From an uncultured Thermoleophilia bacterium (lineage in GTDB: Bacteria; Actinomycetota; Thermoleophilia; UBA2241): a DNA stretch of 64,000 bases. The notes beneath the pieces were generated by a model that saw only the letters and a list, made by a program, of their open reading frames with translations, did not search any database and was not told the origin of the DNA. Shown here piece after piece: positions 1 through 4,610 of this stretch. Location of the stretch: the NCBI GenBank assembly GCA_963696935.1, contig CAVOMB010000060.1, positions 1,704 to 65,703 of the forward strand, read 5' to 3'. The translations under genes were made by a program, and so were the position numbers. How positions within the stretch are numbered: the stretch's first letter is position 1; each line of letters begins with the position of its first letter.

Positions 1-416
1 GTGTGCTGCAGCAGTTCCATGTGCTCCTGCTCGACGCTGACGATGAACTTGCTCGGTTTGACCGAGTAGTCGATGTGGCCGACCTCCATCGAGTCGAACG
101 CGAAGGCGCGCTCGAAGAGCCGGACGGCCGTCTCGCGGCCGATCGGCGCGGCGATGCCGCTGGAGAGCCGCGAGCTGATGAGCGTGTTGGTGCCGCCGTC
201 CTTGGTCATCACGGCCTCGTGACCGCGCTCGACTCCCCAGACGCGGCTGGGGCAGCAGAACATGTCGACCAGGTAGTCGACCTCGTTCTCCTCGAGCACG
301 GGGATCTTGGCCTTGACGGCCGCGGCCTCGGACCCCTCGTCGATGTCCCGGCGGATCTCTCCCCGGGTCATCTGGACGGTGCTGCCGTCACCCATGCGCG
401 TGACGATGGAACTCAC
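1..416 (-). CDS. mtbB: Dimethylamine:corrinoid methyltransferase MtbB-like, 5' part (runs off the left edge)
   Basis: Not in the ORF track. Manual translation from GTG at 416 (GGAGG RBS upstream): VSSIVTRMGDGSTVQMTRGEIRRDIDEGSEAAA...LFERAFAFDSMEVGHIDYSVKPSK. The RMGDG and ERAF..D.ME.GHIDYS.KP blocks match the MtbB N-terminus as I recall it. Confidence 0.85.
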   Translation of the reverse strand, partial: MSSIVTRMGDGSTVQMTRGEIRRDIDEGSEAAAVKAKIPVLEENEVDYLVDMFCCPSRVWGVERGHEAVMTKDGGTNTLISSRLSSGIAAPIGRETAVRLFERAFAFDSMEVGHIDYSVKPSKFIVSVEQEHMELLQH

Positions 417-457
417 CGCTCACCCCCTCCACGGTCGCACTGATGTGGGAAAAGTAC

Positions 458-500
458 CCACCTAGGTGGAGAAGAATAGGTGCATATGGGGGGTTGTCAA
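458..500 (-). promoter_or_regulatory. sigma70-type promoter and palindromic operator for the mtbB-like gene
   Basis: TTGACA-N16-TATTCT on the minus strand (500-495, 478-473); perfect palindrome CCACCTAGGTGG at 458-469 just downstream. Confidence 0.55.
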
Positions 501-541
501 GTGCAGGAGGGGTTTTTCGCCCCCCCCGGTGGGGGCGGCCG

Positions 542-1228
542 TCAGGAAGCGGGCGCCGCCGCCTCCTGCGCCCCGGCGCTCGCGGCGATCTCCAGCAACT
601 GGACCATGGAGTTGCGCAGGAGGAACTCGAGGGCGGCCAGCGGCCGGCTCAGCTCGAAGCCGTCGGGGTTGAGCCCCGCCTGCACGGAGAGGCCGTCCGG
701 GATGGCGGCGATGAGCTCGGCGAGCCCCATGAGCATCTCGTTGGCCTCGGCCCCCGGCGCCGCGAGACCCAGCCACGTGAGGTTCTGGCGATACCACCAC
801 TCGTACAGGGCGAACAGGCGCCCGCGCAGCTCCGGGTCACGGAACGCATGAGGCAGGATGTCGAAGAAGCCGCGGAACGAGTCGGCGTCCACGATCATCC
901 GCCGGATGCCCTCCATGGCCGCGTGCAGCCGCTCCTCCTGCGGCACGCTCTCGACGTCGGCCGCCAGGCGCAGGCACTCGTCGTGGATGAGGGCGTCGGC
1001 GACCGCGATGATGAGCCCGGCCTTGTTGCCGAAGTTGTAGCGGATGGACGCCTTGTTGACGCCCGCCGCGGCGGCGACGTTCTCCAGCGTGACCGCCTCG
1101 AAGCCCTTGTCGGCCAAGAGTTGCTGCGCCGCCTTGAGGATCTTCTGCGCCGTCGCCGGCAGACTCTCCACGGGGTCCTCGAACGGGAACTGCAGGCGGC
1201 CCTTGGGCTTTGGCTGGGACGTGGTCAC
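542..1228 (-). CDS. TetR/AcrR family transcriptional regulator
   Basis: N-terminal HTH ILKAAQQLLADKGFEAVTLENVAAAAGVNKASIRYNFGNK. Confidence 0.9.
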   Translation of the reverse strand: MTTSQPKPKGRLQFPFEDPVESLPATAQKILKAAQQLLADKGFEAVTLENVAAAAGVNKASIRYNFGNKAGLIIAVADALIHDECLRLAADVESVPQEERLHAAMEGIRRMIVDADSFRGFFDILPHAFRDPELRGRLFALYEWWYRQNLTWLGLAAPGAEANEMLMGLAELIAAIPDGLSVQAGLNPDGFELSRPLAALEFLLRNSMVQLLEIAASAGAQEAAAPAS

Positions 1229-1345
1229 GGTCTCCCCTCACGGTCGGTACTACACGCTACACCGGACACTCCGGTCATCCACCCGGGTGGCGGGAACGCA
1301 CGTAGAGTACCCCCGCAGGACGCTACAGCCAACACCCGCGTGCTC

Positions 1346-2386
<1,041 letters not shown>

Positions 2387-3289: not shown

Positions 3290-4610
3290 CCCGGATGAAG
3301 CATGTGTGAAGAAGTGAGAAGGAAGCTCGGCGTCAGGCGTGGGACGAGCCGTCAGAGAGACGGGTGTTGCACTACGGACTTGAACTCAGGCAATCGCGTC
3401 AACGCCCGAGGACGATGTCGATGCCGAGCTTCCATCCGCGCTCCACCCTGGGGGCGGGCGCAGCGATGGCCTGTGCGGCAGCGGGGAGGCCGAGTCTTGT
3501 TGACGAGGGTCGCTGGGCGCCCTCAGCGCATCTGAGGCGGCTCTCCTTCGCTAGGCCGCTGCCCTGTACACCTCCCCACGGTCGAGGAGGGTCCAGGACA
3601 GTCCGAGCGGCTCGCGCGCGGCCGCCACCAGGGCGACCTTCTTGCCGCGGCGGTGGGCACGTGCGAGGTAGCGGTCGCGTAGCGGCCCAAGCAGGCGCAC
3701 GGCGACGTGCGCCGCCTCGACCAGGGCGCGGCGTGCGTGCGGCGAGCCGGCGCGCGTGATGCGCCCGTAGTGGGCGACGTCGGCCGAGGCGCGCACGCAG
3801 GGCACGAGCCCGAAGTAGGCGGAGACCTGGGCCGCGCGCGCGAAGCGGTGCGGGTCGCCGAGCTCGGCGACGAGCGTCGCGGAGGTGAGGAAGCCGACCC
3901 CGGGGATGGTCTGCAGCAGAGCCACCTCAGGGGCGCCGCGGAGGCGCTCGCGCAGCAGCGCCGTGAGCTCCGCCACGTGGGCGTCGGCCTCGTCGATGGT
4001 GGCGAACAGCAGCTCGACGAGCGTGCACGTGTGGGCGTCGAGCTCGAAGCTCGGCGAGCCAGACGCGGCCGCCTCTGCCGAAGAGGTCCGTGCCCGCGAA
4101 GCGCAGGCAGTGGCGCGTGAGCAGGTTGCTGATGCGGTTCTTGGCGGTGGTGCGCTGGGCGACGAAGCGCCAGCGGAGGCGCACGAGGCTCGCGCAGCTC
4201 GCGCACCTCGGCCGGCGGCGCCCAGGCCTCGGGCACGAGGTCGCAGCGCAGCAGATGGGCGAGGATGCGCGCGTCGATCTTGTCGGTCTTCACGCGCGCC
4301 GAGGCGATCGCCTTCACGTGCGAGGGGTGCGCCAGCTTGACGGAGGCGGCGCAGCTGCGCAAGGCGTCGTAGGTGCGGTGCCAGCTGCCGGTCGCCTCGA
4401 GGACCACGGCGCAGTCGCCCGGGACGATGCTCGCGACCTCTTCGGTCGGCAGGCTGCCCTCGCGGAGGATCTCTCCGACCGGGTCCATCAGGCAGTACTG
4501 GGTGCGCACCTTGTGCACGTCGAGTCCCAGGTAGTACGTTGGCATCGGCGCTCTCCTTCCCTGTCGGCGGTGGCTACGACGACAGTACGGGGAGCGTCCT
4601 GTTCATGCCA
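3290..4610 (-). mobile_element. IS110/IS1111-family insertion sequence (ends approximate)
   Basis: Frameshifted transposase flanked by a ~60 bp 5' and a ~260 bp 3' non-coding region; no terminal IRs or target duplication seen. Confidence 0.8.
3551..4545 (-). pseudogene. IS110 transposase, split over several frames
   Basis: RuvC-like YLGLDVHK / VLEATG / KTDKID in ORF 3523-4545; C-terminal LQTIPGVG..SAYFGLVP..S..GRITRAG in ORF 3551-3976; middle part in ORF 3927-4184. Confidence 0.9.

What the first reader, a model, noticed from the sequence alone, without database searches (positions are those of the whole stretch)
1..416. MtbB-type (pyrrolysine-family) dimethylamine methyltransferase in an actinobacterial-looking genome
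Seen: a minus-strand frame absent from the ORF track carries RMGDG..., ERAFAFDSMEVGHIDYSVKP. Established: MtbB of Methanosarcina and some anaerobic bacteria transfers methyl from dimethylamine to a corrinoid protein and carries an in-frame UAG read as pyrrolysine. Inference: this host may demethylate methylamines and may have an expanded genetic code, which would be unusual for its apparent lineage. The expected amber position lies outside the window.
Basis: partly seen in the sequence, partly recalled or inferred. Interest (0 to 1): 0.85.

Follow-up and report, generated by a model that had tools for sequence, protein, structure and literature searches.

The report
Pyrrolysine-type dimethylamine methyltransferase gene, Thermoleophilia
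The window's left edge holds the start of a real dimethylamine-type methyltransferase gene that needs the rare 22nd amino acid pyrrolysine, and this uncultured soil actinobacterium (class Thermoleophilia) carries all the genes to make and insert it; the trait has already been mentioned in print for this phylum, so this is a well-documented new example and not a new kind of thing.

Summary
Window 3-416 (minus strand) encodes the first 138 residues of an MtbB-family protein (Pfam PF09505, E 1.3e-36). The contig runs 1.7 kb further left. There the gene is complete: 474 codons with one in-frame TAG at codon 354, exactly at the family's pyrrolysine motif (DGL-O-VGTGDP). Homology continues for 120 codons after the TAG. 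A match to Rfam's mtbB pyrrolysine insertion element (PYLIS_2) starts at the TAG.

The same genome holds tRNA-Pyl(CUA), pylB, pylC, pylD, pylSn and pylSc. It also holds five more TAG-bearing mtbB copies and more than 30 MttB-family genes. In 301 genomes of the class, PylS and TAG-mtbB co-occur in two families. In near-complete relatives they lie on the same contigs, so a binning artefact is excluded.

TAG still ends about 19% of ORFs, so this is site-specific recoding and not a changed code. However, pyrrolysine-encoding mtbB in Actinobacteriota was already reported in 2023 (PMC10805028). I rate it a new member of a known kind.

Side results:
- A conserved TetR operator and promoter lie upstream of the gene.
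- The Leu codon before the TAG is always UUR.
- A hairpin 72-90 nt after the TAG covaries at synonymous sites.

The parts
1..416 (-). 5' part (138 codons, GTG start at 416-414) of mtbB, a pyrrolysine-type dimethylamine:corrinoid methyltransferase gene. The gene continues off-window to C60:695 (474 codons). The Pyl TAG is at C60:1058-1060, that is 644-646 bases left of window base 1.
   Evidence: ORF and translation. PF09505 E 1.3e-36 for the fragment. Full length: 624 bits Pfam and 523 bits TIGR02368, above the 369.1 cut-off.
426..430 (-). Shine-Dalgarno GGAGG, 9 nt upstream of the GTG start.
   Evidence: Read from the sequence. The GAGG(G/T)GG block and the start position are conserved in 25 orthologous loci.
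473..500 (-). Promoter-like site TTGACA-16 nt-TATTCT for mtbB.
   Evidence: It is the only promoter-like hit in window 1-1500, with 10 of 12 matches and 0.0 expected from shuffles. TTGACA and TAnnnT are conserved in most orthologs while the flanks vary.
458..469 (.). Perfect 12-bp palindrome CCACCTAGGTGG just downstream of the -10 box: probable operator of the adjacent TetR repressor (inferred).
   Evidence: CCACCYRGGTGG lies 45-123 nt upstream of mtbB in 25 of 26 orthologous loci. It is absent from 17 loci of other mtbB paralog clades.
542..1228 (-). TetR-family regulator with a BetI-type C-terminal domain, same strand, directly upstream of mtbB.
   Evidence: PF00440 E 6e-14 and PF13977 E 3.8e-8. 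The weak BetI match is below cut-off. The same gene sits in the same place in ortholog locus L022.
1279..1290 (.). Second copy of the palindrome (CCACCCGGGTGG), about 50 nt upstream of the tetR start: probable autoregulation site (inferred).
   Evidence: Found at C60:2982. A second copy 820-1120 nt upstream of mtbB occurs in 19 of 26 orthologous loci.

Best explanation
Window 1-416 is the 5' end of an intact mtbB gene of an uncultured Thermoleophilia (Actinomycetota) bacterium.

Shown:
- The gene has 474 codons with one in-frame UAG at codon 354, at the family's pyrrolysine position.
- The reading frame, invariant residues and a catalogued RNA element (Rfam PYLIS_2) continue after the UAG.
- The genome encodes tRNA-Pyl(CUA), the split synthetase PylSn + PylSc, and the biosynthesis enzymes PylB, PylC and PylD.

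Inferred mechanism:
- PylBCD make pyrrolysine from lysine and PylS charges tRNA-Pyl.
- tRNA-Pyl competes with release factor 1 at this UAG, giving full-length MtbB, a TIM-barrel enzyme with Pyl on a barrel strand.
- MtbB moves a methyl group from dimethylamine (or a close secondary or tertiary methylamine) to the Co(I) corrinoid protein encoded by the next gene (mtbC-like).
- A RamA-type activase keeps the corrinoid reduced.
- A second methyltransferase hands the methyl group to tetrahydrofolate, from where it can enter the acetyl-CoA synthase pathway that the genome also encodes.
- Transcription probably starts at a sigma-70-like promoter and is repressed by the adjacent TetR protein, bound to a conserved palindrome, until a methylamine-related ligand is present.
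For: Gene and UAG:
- The frame and the TAG position are read directly from the contig.
- The full-length protein scores 523 bits in TIGR02368, cut-off 369.1, in one stretch spanning the Pyl site.
- After the UAG, 18 columns are invariant in 26 sequences down to 48% identity.
- All 6 own paralogs and 74 of 76 full-length relatives from four phyla have exactly one TAG in the motif DG[LIY]-O-[VIA]G.GD. The other 2 look frameshifted.
- Rfam PYLIS_2 (RF02509) scores 54.9 bits against a gathering score of 36, starting at the TAG. Its 3' hairpin covaries: score 0.250 against 0.106 in shuffles, reached by 0 of 500 shuffles.

Pyl machinery in the genome:
- tRNA-Pyl(cta) at C53:15560-15632.
- pylB 447 bits, pylC 346.6 bits and pylD 195 bits, contiguous and just upstream of it.
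- pylSn 128.7 bits, about 6 kb downstream.
- pylSc 314.9 bits on C55.

Same organism:
- C53, C55 and C60 are close to the genome's mean tetranucleotide composition.
- PylS occurs in 61 and TAG-mtbB in 63 of 301 genomes of the class, in the same two families.
- Both lie on one contig in relatives G008:C1, G191:C10, G026:C11, G226:C5, G178:C1 and G100:C33.
- Orthologs at 81-96% identity lie on contigs up to 2 Mb named Thermoleophilia.

Partner genes:
- A corrinoid protein gene follows mtbB. The own copy shows the B12-binding_2 domain at E 7.4e-21, and the full ortholog has both B12 domains.
- Two RamA-like genes, two MtaA-like URO-D family genes and acetyl-CoA synthase CdhC at 212.9 bits.

Structure and regulation:
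- The AlphaFold model has pLDDT 90.6 with K/Pyl354 in strand 352-355, and its PDB matches are TIM barrels.

Expression: Pyl-type mtbB is reported as expressed in Actinobacteriota MAGs (PMC10805028).
Against: - No protein-level evidence exists here. Pyl insertion is inferred from genes and conservation only.
- In this assembly the downstream corrinoid gene is cut after about 87 codons by a 46% GC stretch at the contig end. The operon may therefore be disrupted in this strain, or the contig end may be chimeric.
- The corrinoid protein scores below the MtbC equivalog cut-off, 191 against 350 bits.
- As far as I know, no bacterial MtbB has been assayed, so dimethylamine as the substrate rests on homology. 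The six paralogs are only about 50% identical and fall in two deep clades, so they may have different substrates.
- The 5' stem of PYLIS_2 is not maintained in this sequence.
- Rfam's tRNA models do not report the tRNA-Pyl. Only ARAGORN does.
Confidence: 0.9

Rival explanations
1. The enzyme belongs to the MtbB family and uses pyrrolysine, but this copy (or some of the six paralogs) acts on a methylated amine other than dimethylamine.
For: The own genome has six copies at only about 50% identity. They fall in two deep clades with different sister groups, Desulfobacterales and Firmicutes. The genome also holds more than 30 MttB-family genes, a sign of broad methyl-amine specialisation. The neighbouring corrinoid protein scores best against a glycine-betaine-type model, though below cut-off. 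The regulator has a BetI-type ligand domain.
Against: The C60 copy passes NCBI's equivalog cut-off for dimethylamine methyltransferase. The Pyl-site motif and many other residues are invariant across the family. In ortholog locus L022 the gene sits beside a Pyl-type mttB, which would produce dimethylamine from trimethylamine.
Confidence: 0.25
2. The TAG is a true stop. The gene is a decayed or split pseudogene that yields a 353-residue fragment, as public gene calls show.
For: All 120 best database relatives are stored as fragments of about 353 residues that end at the TAG. TAG is a normal stop for 18.6% of ORFs in this genome. One paralog (C17) looks frameshifted.
Against: The frame stays open for 120 more codons with 18 invariant columns. 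The TAG sits at the same motif in 80 genes of four phyla, and no sense-codon variant was found. A complete pyl gene set is present. PylS and TAG-mtbB co-occur across the class. The truncated database entries are what gene callers produce with table 11.
Confidence: 0.03
3. Binning or assembly artefact: the mtbB contig and the pyl contigs come from different organisms, so the actinobacterium itself has no pyrrolysine.
For: The genome is a MAG of 115 contigs, 82.6% complete with 3.2% contamination. mtbB, pylBCD-T-Sn and pylSc lie on three different contigs. The first 437 bases of C60 have foreign composition. One ortholog is labelled Deltaproteobacteria (L027).
Against: Composition of the three contigs is typical of the bin. 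Of 56 sampled genomes of the family, 54 have TAG-mtbB and 52 have PylS. Both genes lie on the same contig in several relatives assembled into 5-30 contigs. mtbB is physically joined to 64 kb of the window.
Confidence: 0.02
4. Genome-wide reassignment: all TAG codons are read as pyrrolysine, as recently described for some archaea.
For: The complete Pyl machinery and at least 10 TAG-containing methyltransferase genes are present.
Against: TAG ends 409 of 2196 coding-like ORFs (18.6%). The distance to the next in-frame stop is the same after TAG as after TGA and TAA.
Confidence: 0.02

Closest known systems
Methanosarcina barkeri MtbB1-3 with MtbC (dimethylamine:corrinoid methyltransferase system; Paul, Ferguson and Krzycki 2000, cited in PMC10805028)
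   Same: Same protein family (PF09505/TIGR02368, above the equivalog cut-off). A single read-through UAG at the same motif. A corrinoid protein gene sits next to it. The Rfam PYLIS_2 region follows the UAG. The pylTSBCD machinery is in the genome.
   Different: The host is a bacterium, so the methyl group probably goes to tetrahydrofolate and not to coenzyme M (inferred). PylS is split into PylSn and PylSc. The paralogs are deeply diverged (about 50% identity), whereas from memory the Methanosarcina copies are nearly identical. The corrinoid protein is below the MtbC equivalog cut-off.
Pyrrolysine-encoding mttB/mtbB of Actinobacteriota MAGs in Stordalen Mire (Ellenbogen et al. 2023, PMC10805028)
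   Same: Same phylum, same gene type, and identified through truncation at the amber codon. Expression was seen in metatranscriptomes. The genus RBG-16-64-13 is named there as the most active Actinobacteriota methylotroph.
   Different: That paper gives one sentence and no analysis of the pyl genes, paralogs, regulation or context. I could not verify that this window's genus is the same one.
Bacterial Pyl systems of Desulfitobacterium hafniense and Acetohalobium arabaticum (Prat et al. 2012, cited in PMC12626013), and of marine Deltaproteobacteria (PMC1976440)
   Same: Split PylSn + PylSc, pylBCD, tRNA-Pyl, and UAG kept as a common stop. Pyl is used in methylamine methyltransferases. The nearest non-actinobacterial MtbB relatives are Desulfobacterales and Firmicutes at about 50% identity.
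   Different: The pyl genes are dispersed here: pylBCD-pylT, pylSn 6 kb away, pylSc elsewhere. From memory, those organisms have a single cassette. This host has 70% GC. mtbB is under a TetR-type operator.
Rfam RF02509 PYLIS_2 (mtbB pyrrolysine insertion sequence; Have et al. 2013, PMC3639795)
   Same: A 100-nt match that starts at the UAG, 54.9 bits. The 3' hairpin is present and covaries.
   Different: The 5' stem of the model is not maintained here. Two positions that Rfam leaves unpaired (third bases of the Ala and Leu codons) pair and covary in bacterial sequences. The function of the element is untested.

Membership tests
MtbB, dimethylamine:corrinoid methyltransferase (PF09505 / TIGR02368) | Full-length match above the curated cut-off | tested here: met
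   TIGR02368 523 bits against cut-off 369.1, positions 7-465 of 466 in one stretch. PF09505 624.3 bits.
MtbB, dimethylamine:corrinoid methyltransferase (PF09505 / TIGR02368) | Single in-frame UAG at the conserved pyrrolysine position | tested here: met
   TAG at codon 354 in GKADGL-O-VGTGDP. The same column holds TAG in 80 homologs.
MtbB, dimethylamine:corrinoid methyltransferase (PF09505 / TIGR02368) | Adjacent cognate corrinoid (B12-binding) protein | tested here: met
   The next gene overlaps the mtbB stop (GTGA) and has B12-binding_2 at E 7.4e-21. It is truncated by the contig end in this assembly. Ortholog L022 has both B12 domains. It is below the MtbC equivalog cut-off, 191 against 350 bits.
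MtbB, dimethylamine:corrinoid methyltransferase (PF09505 / TIGR02368) | TIM-barrel fold with Pyl in the barrel | tested here: inconclusive
   The AlphaFold model has pLDDT 90.6 with residue 354 in strand 352-355. PDB matches are generic TIM barrels (BHMT, MetH, HisF) with TM 0.3-0.6. No MtbB structure has been solved.
MtbB, dimethylamine:corrinoid methyltransferase (PF09505 / TIGR02368) | Dimethylamine-dependent methylation of the corrinoid protein | not testable with these tools
   Requires a biochemical assay.
Pyrrolysine decoding system (pylTSBCD) | tRNA with CUA anticodon and tRNA-Pyl architecture | tested here: met
   ARAGORN calls tRNA-Pyl(cta) at C53:15560-15632, directly after pylD. 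It has one base between the acceptor and D stems, a 6-bp anticodon stem and a short variable loop. Rfam reports nothing there.
Pyrrolysine decoding system (pylTSBCD) | Pyrrolysyl-tRNA synthetase (bacterial split form, PylSc + PylSn) | tested here: met
   TIGR02367 314.9 bits against cut-off 178. TIGR03912 128.7 bits against cut-off 51.
Pyrrolysine decoding system (pylTSBCD) | Biosynthesis genes pylB, pylC and pylD | tested here: met
   447, 346.6 and 195 bits, all above cut-off and contiguous on C53.
Pyrrolysine decoding system (pylTSBCD) | Pyrrolysine actually present in the protein | not testable with these tools
   Needs mass spectrometry.
Rfam RF02509 PYLIS_2 | Match above the gathering score, starting at the UAG | tested here: met
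   54.9 bits against 36, model positions 1-100, C60 1060-961 minus strand.
Genome-wide TAG=Pyl code (archaeal type, Kivenson et al. 2025, cited in PMC13695967) | TAG no longer used as a stop | tested here: not met
   TAG ends 18.6% of 2196 coding-like ORFs, and there is no excess of back-up stops.

The most novel reading that the evidence does not exclude
In bacteria that still use UAG as a common stop, the Pyl UAG of mtbB (and of mttB) may be marked by a cis-acting context under nucleotide-level selection. One part is a fixed rare codon in the P site directly before the UAG: UUR for Leu in 76 of 76 mtbB genes, and GGU-GCG in 30 of 30 mttB genes. The other part is a 7-8 bp hairpin with an AGAY loop 72-90 nt downstream that covaries at synonymous sites. 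Together these would raise the share of ribosomes that insert pyrrolysine and do not terminate. No sequence cue for targeted Pyl insertion is currently accepted (PMC12626013).
Probability: 0.35. Interest if true: 0.7.

Novelty: new member of a known kind. Interest (0 to 1): 0.38.

Why it matters
The finding documents that a whole family of uncultured soil and sediment Thermoleophilia carries a complete pyrrolysine system. Of 56 sampled genomes in nine genera, 54 have TAG-mtbB and 52 have PylS. The family also carries several deeply diverged Pyl-dependent dimethylamine methyltransferases. This makes these actinobacteria likely consumers of methylamines, which otherwise feed methylotrophic methanogens. 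That matters for carbon and nitrogen cycling and for methane budgets in wetlands and soils.

In practice, public protein databases store these genes as 353-residue fragments, so their abundance is easy to miss.

The side observations are a fixed UUR codon before the UAG and a covarying hairpin after it, in a 70% GC background where such codons are rare. They give a directly testable handle on an open question: how pyrrolysine UAGs are favoured over stop UAGs.

Tried and rejected
I could not test transcription, read support for the TAG, or the junction at C60:437.
2. Rfam did not report the tRNA-Pyl. I rely on ARAGORN and on its position directly after pylD.
3. No solved structure matches by sequence. 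The fold search gave only generic TIM barrels, so structure adds little to family assignment.
4. RNAalifold over -30 to +150 nt found no long-range structure. The stem predicted immediately at the TAG in the single sequence is not supported by compensatory changes, and the 5' stem of PYLIS_2 is broken here.
5. I considered pairing between UAGGU and AUCUG of the downstream element. It has only 5 pairs, two of them wobbles, and no extension, so I rejected it.
6. I considered an SD-like or re-initiation reading of GGAGAUCUGGUG. The spacing is poor and the covariation fits a hairpin better, so I rejected it.
7. The preference for GTR in the Val codon after the TAG is not unique: other Val columns show the same bias. 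I do not claim it.
8. The palindrome CCACCYRGGTGG is not enriched genome-wide: 6 copies against about 4 expected from composition (my estimate). The evidence for it is its position and conservation, not its count.
9. The terminator-like call on the palindrome depends on a T-run that orthologs lack, so I rejected it.
10. I did not search for mtmB (monomethylamine methyltransferase).

Full report
**Observation**

The minus strand of window 3-416 is an open frame that starts with GTG at 416-414, preceded by GGAGG at 430-426. It runs off the left end of the window. They match Pfam PF09505 (Dimeth_Pyl) at E 1.3e-36 over profile positions 4-136 and TIGR02368 at E 2e-25.

**The rest of the gene**

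- The window is G000:C60:1704-65703 in a 3.04 Mb, 115-contig, 69.6% GC genome. It is 82.6% complete with 3.2% contamination.
- On the contig the frame continues to a TGA at C60 695-697, giving 474 codons.
- One in-frame TAG sits at codon 354 (C60 1058-1060) in the context GKADGL-TAG-VGTGDPNGMG.
- Read through, the protein scores 523 bits against the 369.1-bit equivalog cut-off of TIGR02368, in a single stretch that spans the TAG. It scores 624 bits in Pfam.
- In an alignment of 26 relatives down to 48% identity, 18 invariant columns lie after the TAG. The part after the TAG is therefore translated and under selection.

**Is the TAG the pyrrolysine codon?**

- The genome has five more full-length mtbB copies and a fragment. 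Each full-length copy has one TAG in the same motif DG[LY]-TAG-[VI]G.GD.
- Of 76 full-length relatives fetched from public genomes, 74 have exactly one internal TAG there. These come from Thermoleophilia, Desulfobacterales, Firmicutes and Dehalococcoidales. The other two look frameshifted.
- No relative has a sense codon at that column.
- Rfam's family RF02509 (PYLIS_2, 'pyrrolysine insertion sequence mtbB') matches from the TAG for 100 nt at 54.9 bits, gathering score 36.

**The decoding machinery**

- ARAGORN finds tRNA-Pyl(cta) at C53:15560-15632. It has the typical single base between the acceptor and D stems, a 6-bp anticodon stem and a short variable loop. Rfam reports nothing there.
- Directly upstream on the same strand lie pylB (447 bits), pylC (346.6 bits) and pylD (195 bits). 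All are above NCBIfam cut-offs.
- pylSn (128.7 bits) lies about 6 kb downstream.
- pylSc (314.9 bits) is on contig C55, translationally coupled to a cell-wall amidase gene.
- The pyl set is therefore complete but dispersed.

**One organism or a binning artefact?**

- C53, C55 and C60 rank 8th, 37th and 16th of 113 contigs by closeness to the genome's mean tetranucleotide composition.
- Among 301 genomes sampled from the class, 63 have mtbB and every listed hit has one TAG. PylSc is present in 61 of those 63.
- These genomes belong to two families: the window's own (54 of 56 with mtbB, 52 with PylS) and a second one (9 genomes).
- Two small genomes of the same genus lack both genes.
- In several relatives assembled into few contigs, mtbB and pylS lie on one contig: G008:C1, G191:C10, G026:C11, G226:C5 and G156:C3. 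In the second family they are adjacent: G100:C33, G168:C11, G010:C12 and G178:C1.
- This excludes a binning artefact.

**Lineage**

Orthologs at 81-96% identity sit on contigs of up to 2 Mb. Nearly all are titled 'Thermoleophilia bacterium', or uncultured Actinomycetes or Actinomycetota. Thermoleophilia is a class of Actinomycetota. The next nearest MtbB sequences, at about 50% identity, are from Desulfobacterales, Dehalococcoidales and Firmicutes.

A maximum-likelihood tree puts the Thermoleophilia sequences in two well-supported clades. The window's gene falls in a clade next to Desulfobacterales sequences. Four other paralogs fall in a clade next to Firmicutes sequences. The tree has no archaeal outgroup, so direction of transfer is not resolved.

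**Code change or site-specific recoding?**

TAG ends 409 of 2196 coding-like ORFs (18.6%). The distance to the next in-frame stop is the same after TAG as after TGA and TAA. UAG is therefore still a normal stop, and Pyl insertion must compete with termination, as in other Pyl bacteria.

**Gene neighbourhood and likely pathway**

- In the 96%-identical ortholog locus L022 the order is: guaB-like, guaA, a transglutaminase-like membrane protein, threonine aldolase, tetR, mtbB(TAG), a 208-residue corrinoid protein with both B12 domains, an MttB-family gene without TAG, an mttB with TAG, and a second mtbB with TAG.
- The window shows the same upstream genes.
- In this assembly the corrinoid gene starts with a GTGA overlap at C60:698 and has the B12-binding_2 domain (E 7.4e-21).
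- Homology to the ortholog stops at about C60:437. There GC falls from 0.70 to 0.46, and an open frame resembling a transposase helix-turn-helix begins.
- A nearly identical full copy of the corrinoid gene (close to the L022 ortholog's) exists at C86:21874-22500. A repeat-induced assembly break or chimera is therefore as likely as a real insertion.
- Elsewhere the genome has two RamA-type corrinoid activase genes, two weak URO-D-family hits of the MtaA/MtbA kind, and acetyl-CoA synthase (CdhC, 212.9 bits). CdhC is also present in 31 of 51 genomes of the family.
- From this I infer, but have not shown, the route: dimethylamine to methyl-corrinoid to methyl-tetrahydrofolate to acetyl-CoA or CO2.

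**Regulation**

- The only promoter-like site in window 1-1500 is TTGACA-16-TATTCT at 500-473, on the strand of mtbB.
- Directly after it lies the perfect palindrome CCACCTAGGTGG (458-469).
- In 25 of 26 orthologous loci the motif CCACCYRGGTGG lies 45-123 nt upstream of mtbB, while the sequence around it varies.
- In 19 of 26 a second copy lies upstream of tetR, as in the window at 1279-1290.
- None of 17 loci of other mtbB clades has it near the gene.
- I read this as the operator of the adjacent TetR (BetI-type C-terminal domain), with autoregulation. This is inferred from position and conservation only.

**Nucleotide-level constraints around the UAG**

1. *The codon before the TAG.* The Leu codon directly before the TAG is TTG or TTA in 76 of 76 genes, and in 29 of 29 representatives below 85% identity. 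Fourteen other conserved Leu columns of the same alignment have 0-12% TTR. In this genome TTG is 3.1% of Leu codons. Among 174 conserved columns in 17 high-GC representatives, this is the most anomalous codon column.
2. *The same effect in mttB.* At the Pyl site of neighbouring mttB genes, the two preceding codons are GGT-GCG in 30 of 30 distinct contexts, or GGG-TTG in 2. These 30 are related orthologs, so they are not independent.
3. *Composition after the TAG.* GC3 in 61 high-GC mtbB genes drops from about 0.95 to 0.62 in codons +20 to +29. The Gly codon at +26 is GGA in all 34 representatives, although GGA is 6.6% of Gly codons genome-wide.
4. *The hairpin.* This region is the 3' hairpin of PYLIS_2. 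On 55 distinct sequences, an 8-pair helix with loop AGAY forms standard pairs in 88.6% of cells.
   - The third bases of the flanking codons covary. Pair 9-24 is CG 24, UA 10, AU 8, UG 6, GC 2. Pair 12-21 is CG 34, UG 13, GC 5, UA 1.
   - The covariation score is 0.250 against 0.106 +/- 0.012 in shuffles, reached by 0 of 500.
   - Slid controls give 0.03-0.12.
   - The hairpin is therefore real as RNA. Its function is unknown.

Current literature says no sequence cue is essential for Pyl insertion and that context 'might be important' (PMC12626013). A canonical structure after the UAG of mtbB was proposed in 2013 (PMC3639795). Other agents of this scan reported the same UUG rule and hairpin in other genomes. 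Those are unchecked notes, but my counts were made independently here.

**Structure**

An AlphaFold model built on 26 sequences has mean pLDDT 90.6 and pTM 0.91, with residue 354 in a beta strand (352-355). The PDB has no sequence relative. The best structural matches are generic (beta-alpha)8 barrels, including betaine-homocysteine methyltransferase and the barrel domains of methionine synthase, with TM 0.3-0.6. This agrees with a TIM-barrel methyltransferase but does not add to family assignment.

**What is known, and novelty**

[quoted passage not shown] It names genus RBG-16-64-13 among the most active methylotrophs.
- PMC9630628 counts two Actinobacteria among 81 bacterial genomes with PylRS.
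- No paper in the library combines pyrrolysine and Thermoleophilia in substance.
- Public protein collections hold these genes as fragments of about 353 residues, some named dimethylamine-corrinoid protein Co-methyltransferase.
- The gene is therefore a new, well-supported member of a known kind, in a lineage where the trait has been mentioned but not described.
- The points I did not find in the papers searched are: family-wide distribution with perfect PylS/mtbB co-occurrence; the dispersed pyl genes; the deep paralog clades; the TetR operator; and the upstream codon rule.

**Verdict**

Novelty is 'new member of a known kind', and interest is moderate to low for the gene itself. The most novel reading still open is that the fixed codon before the UAG and the downstream hairpin are functional signals for pyrrolysine insertion.

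Noticed in passing
G000:C60:1-437 (off-window, left of window base 1): The contig's first 437 bases have 46% GC against 70% elsewhere. They carry an open frame resembling a transposase helix-turn-helix and cut the mtbC-like corrinoid gene after about 87 codons. A nearly identical full copy of that corrinoid gene sits at C86:21874-22500. An assembly chimera at a repeat or a real insertion are both possible.
   Followed up: partly
window 458-469 and 1279-1290: Two copies of the palindrome CCACCYRGGTGG flank the tetR gene. One overlaps the mtbB promoter and one lies upstream of tetR. Both are conserved in position in most orthologous loci and absent from other mtbB paralog loci. This is a probable TetR operator pair.
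   Followed up: yes
G000:C60:1061-1063 (codon before the Pyl TAG) and the same column in loci L022-L100: The Leu codon before the Pyl TAG is TTG or TTA in 76 of 76 mtbB genes from four phyla. TTR makes up 0-12% at 14 other conserved Leu columns and 3% genome-wide. At mttB Pyl sites the two preceding codons are GGT-GCG in 30 of 30.
   Followed up: yes
G000:C60:968-991 minus strand (codons +24 to +30 after the TAG): A 7-8 bp hairpin with loop AGAY and an invariant GGA Gly codon covaries at synonymous third positions in 55 distinct sequences. It is the 3' hairpin of Rfam PYLIS_2. Two positions that Rfam leaves unpaired also pair and covary.
   Followed up: yes
G000:C53:12215-15632, C53:21708-21968, C55:42852-43712: The pyl genes are dispersed: pylB-pylC-pylD-pylT together, pylSn 6 kb downstream, and pylSc on another contig, overlapping the stop of a peptidoglycan amidase gene. 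In the second Pyl-positive family of the class, pylS lies next to mtbB.
   Followed up: partly
G000:C56:52228-53676, C100:19692-21167, C1:40207-40773: Three MttB-family matches contain one in-frame TGA. The genome also has a tRNA-Sec at C100:12240-12337, 7 kb from one of them. Selenocysteine, a frameshift and a pseudogene were not distinguished.
   Followed up: no
G000 whole genome: There are more than 30 MttB-superfamily genes, 4-5 of them with TAG, and 6 mtbB genes in a 3 Mb genome. Acetyl-CoA synthase and two RamA-like activases are also present. The organism looks like a specialist in methyl-amine demethylation.
   Followed up: partly
G000:C17:3183-4451: One mtbB paralog has a disrupted N-terminal third. 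The frame shifts near profile positions 134-171. It may be a pseudogene or an assembly error. It still carries the TAG, preceded by TTG.
   Followed up: no
window 3523-4545: A minus-strand ORF starts like an IS110-family transposase (MPTYYLGLDVHK...), but its C-terminal half reads as low-complexity sequence, suggesting a frameshift. In ortholog locus L022 the guaA gene lies at the corresponding place, so the window has an insertion or rearrangement here.
   Followed up: no
public protein collection: All 120 best database relatives of this protein are stored as fragments of about 353 residues that end at the amber codon. Automated annotation therefore truncates this family systematically.
   Followed up: yes
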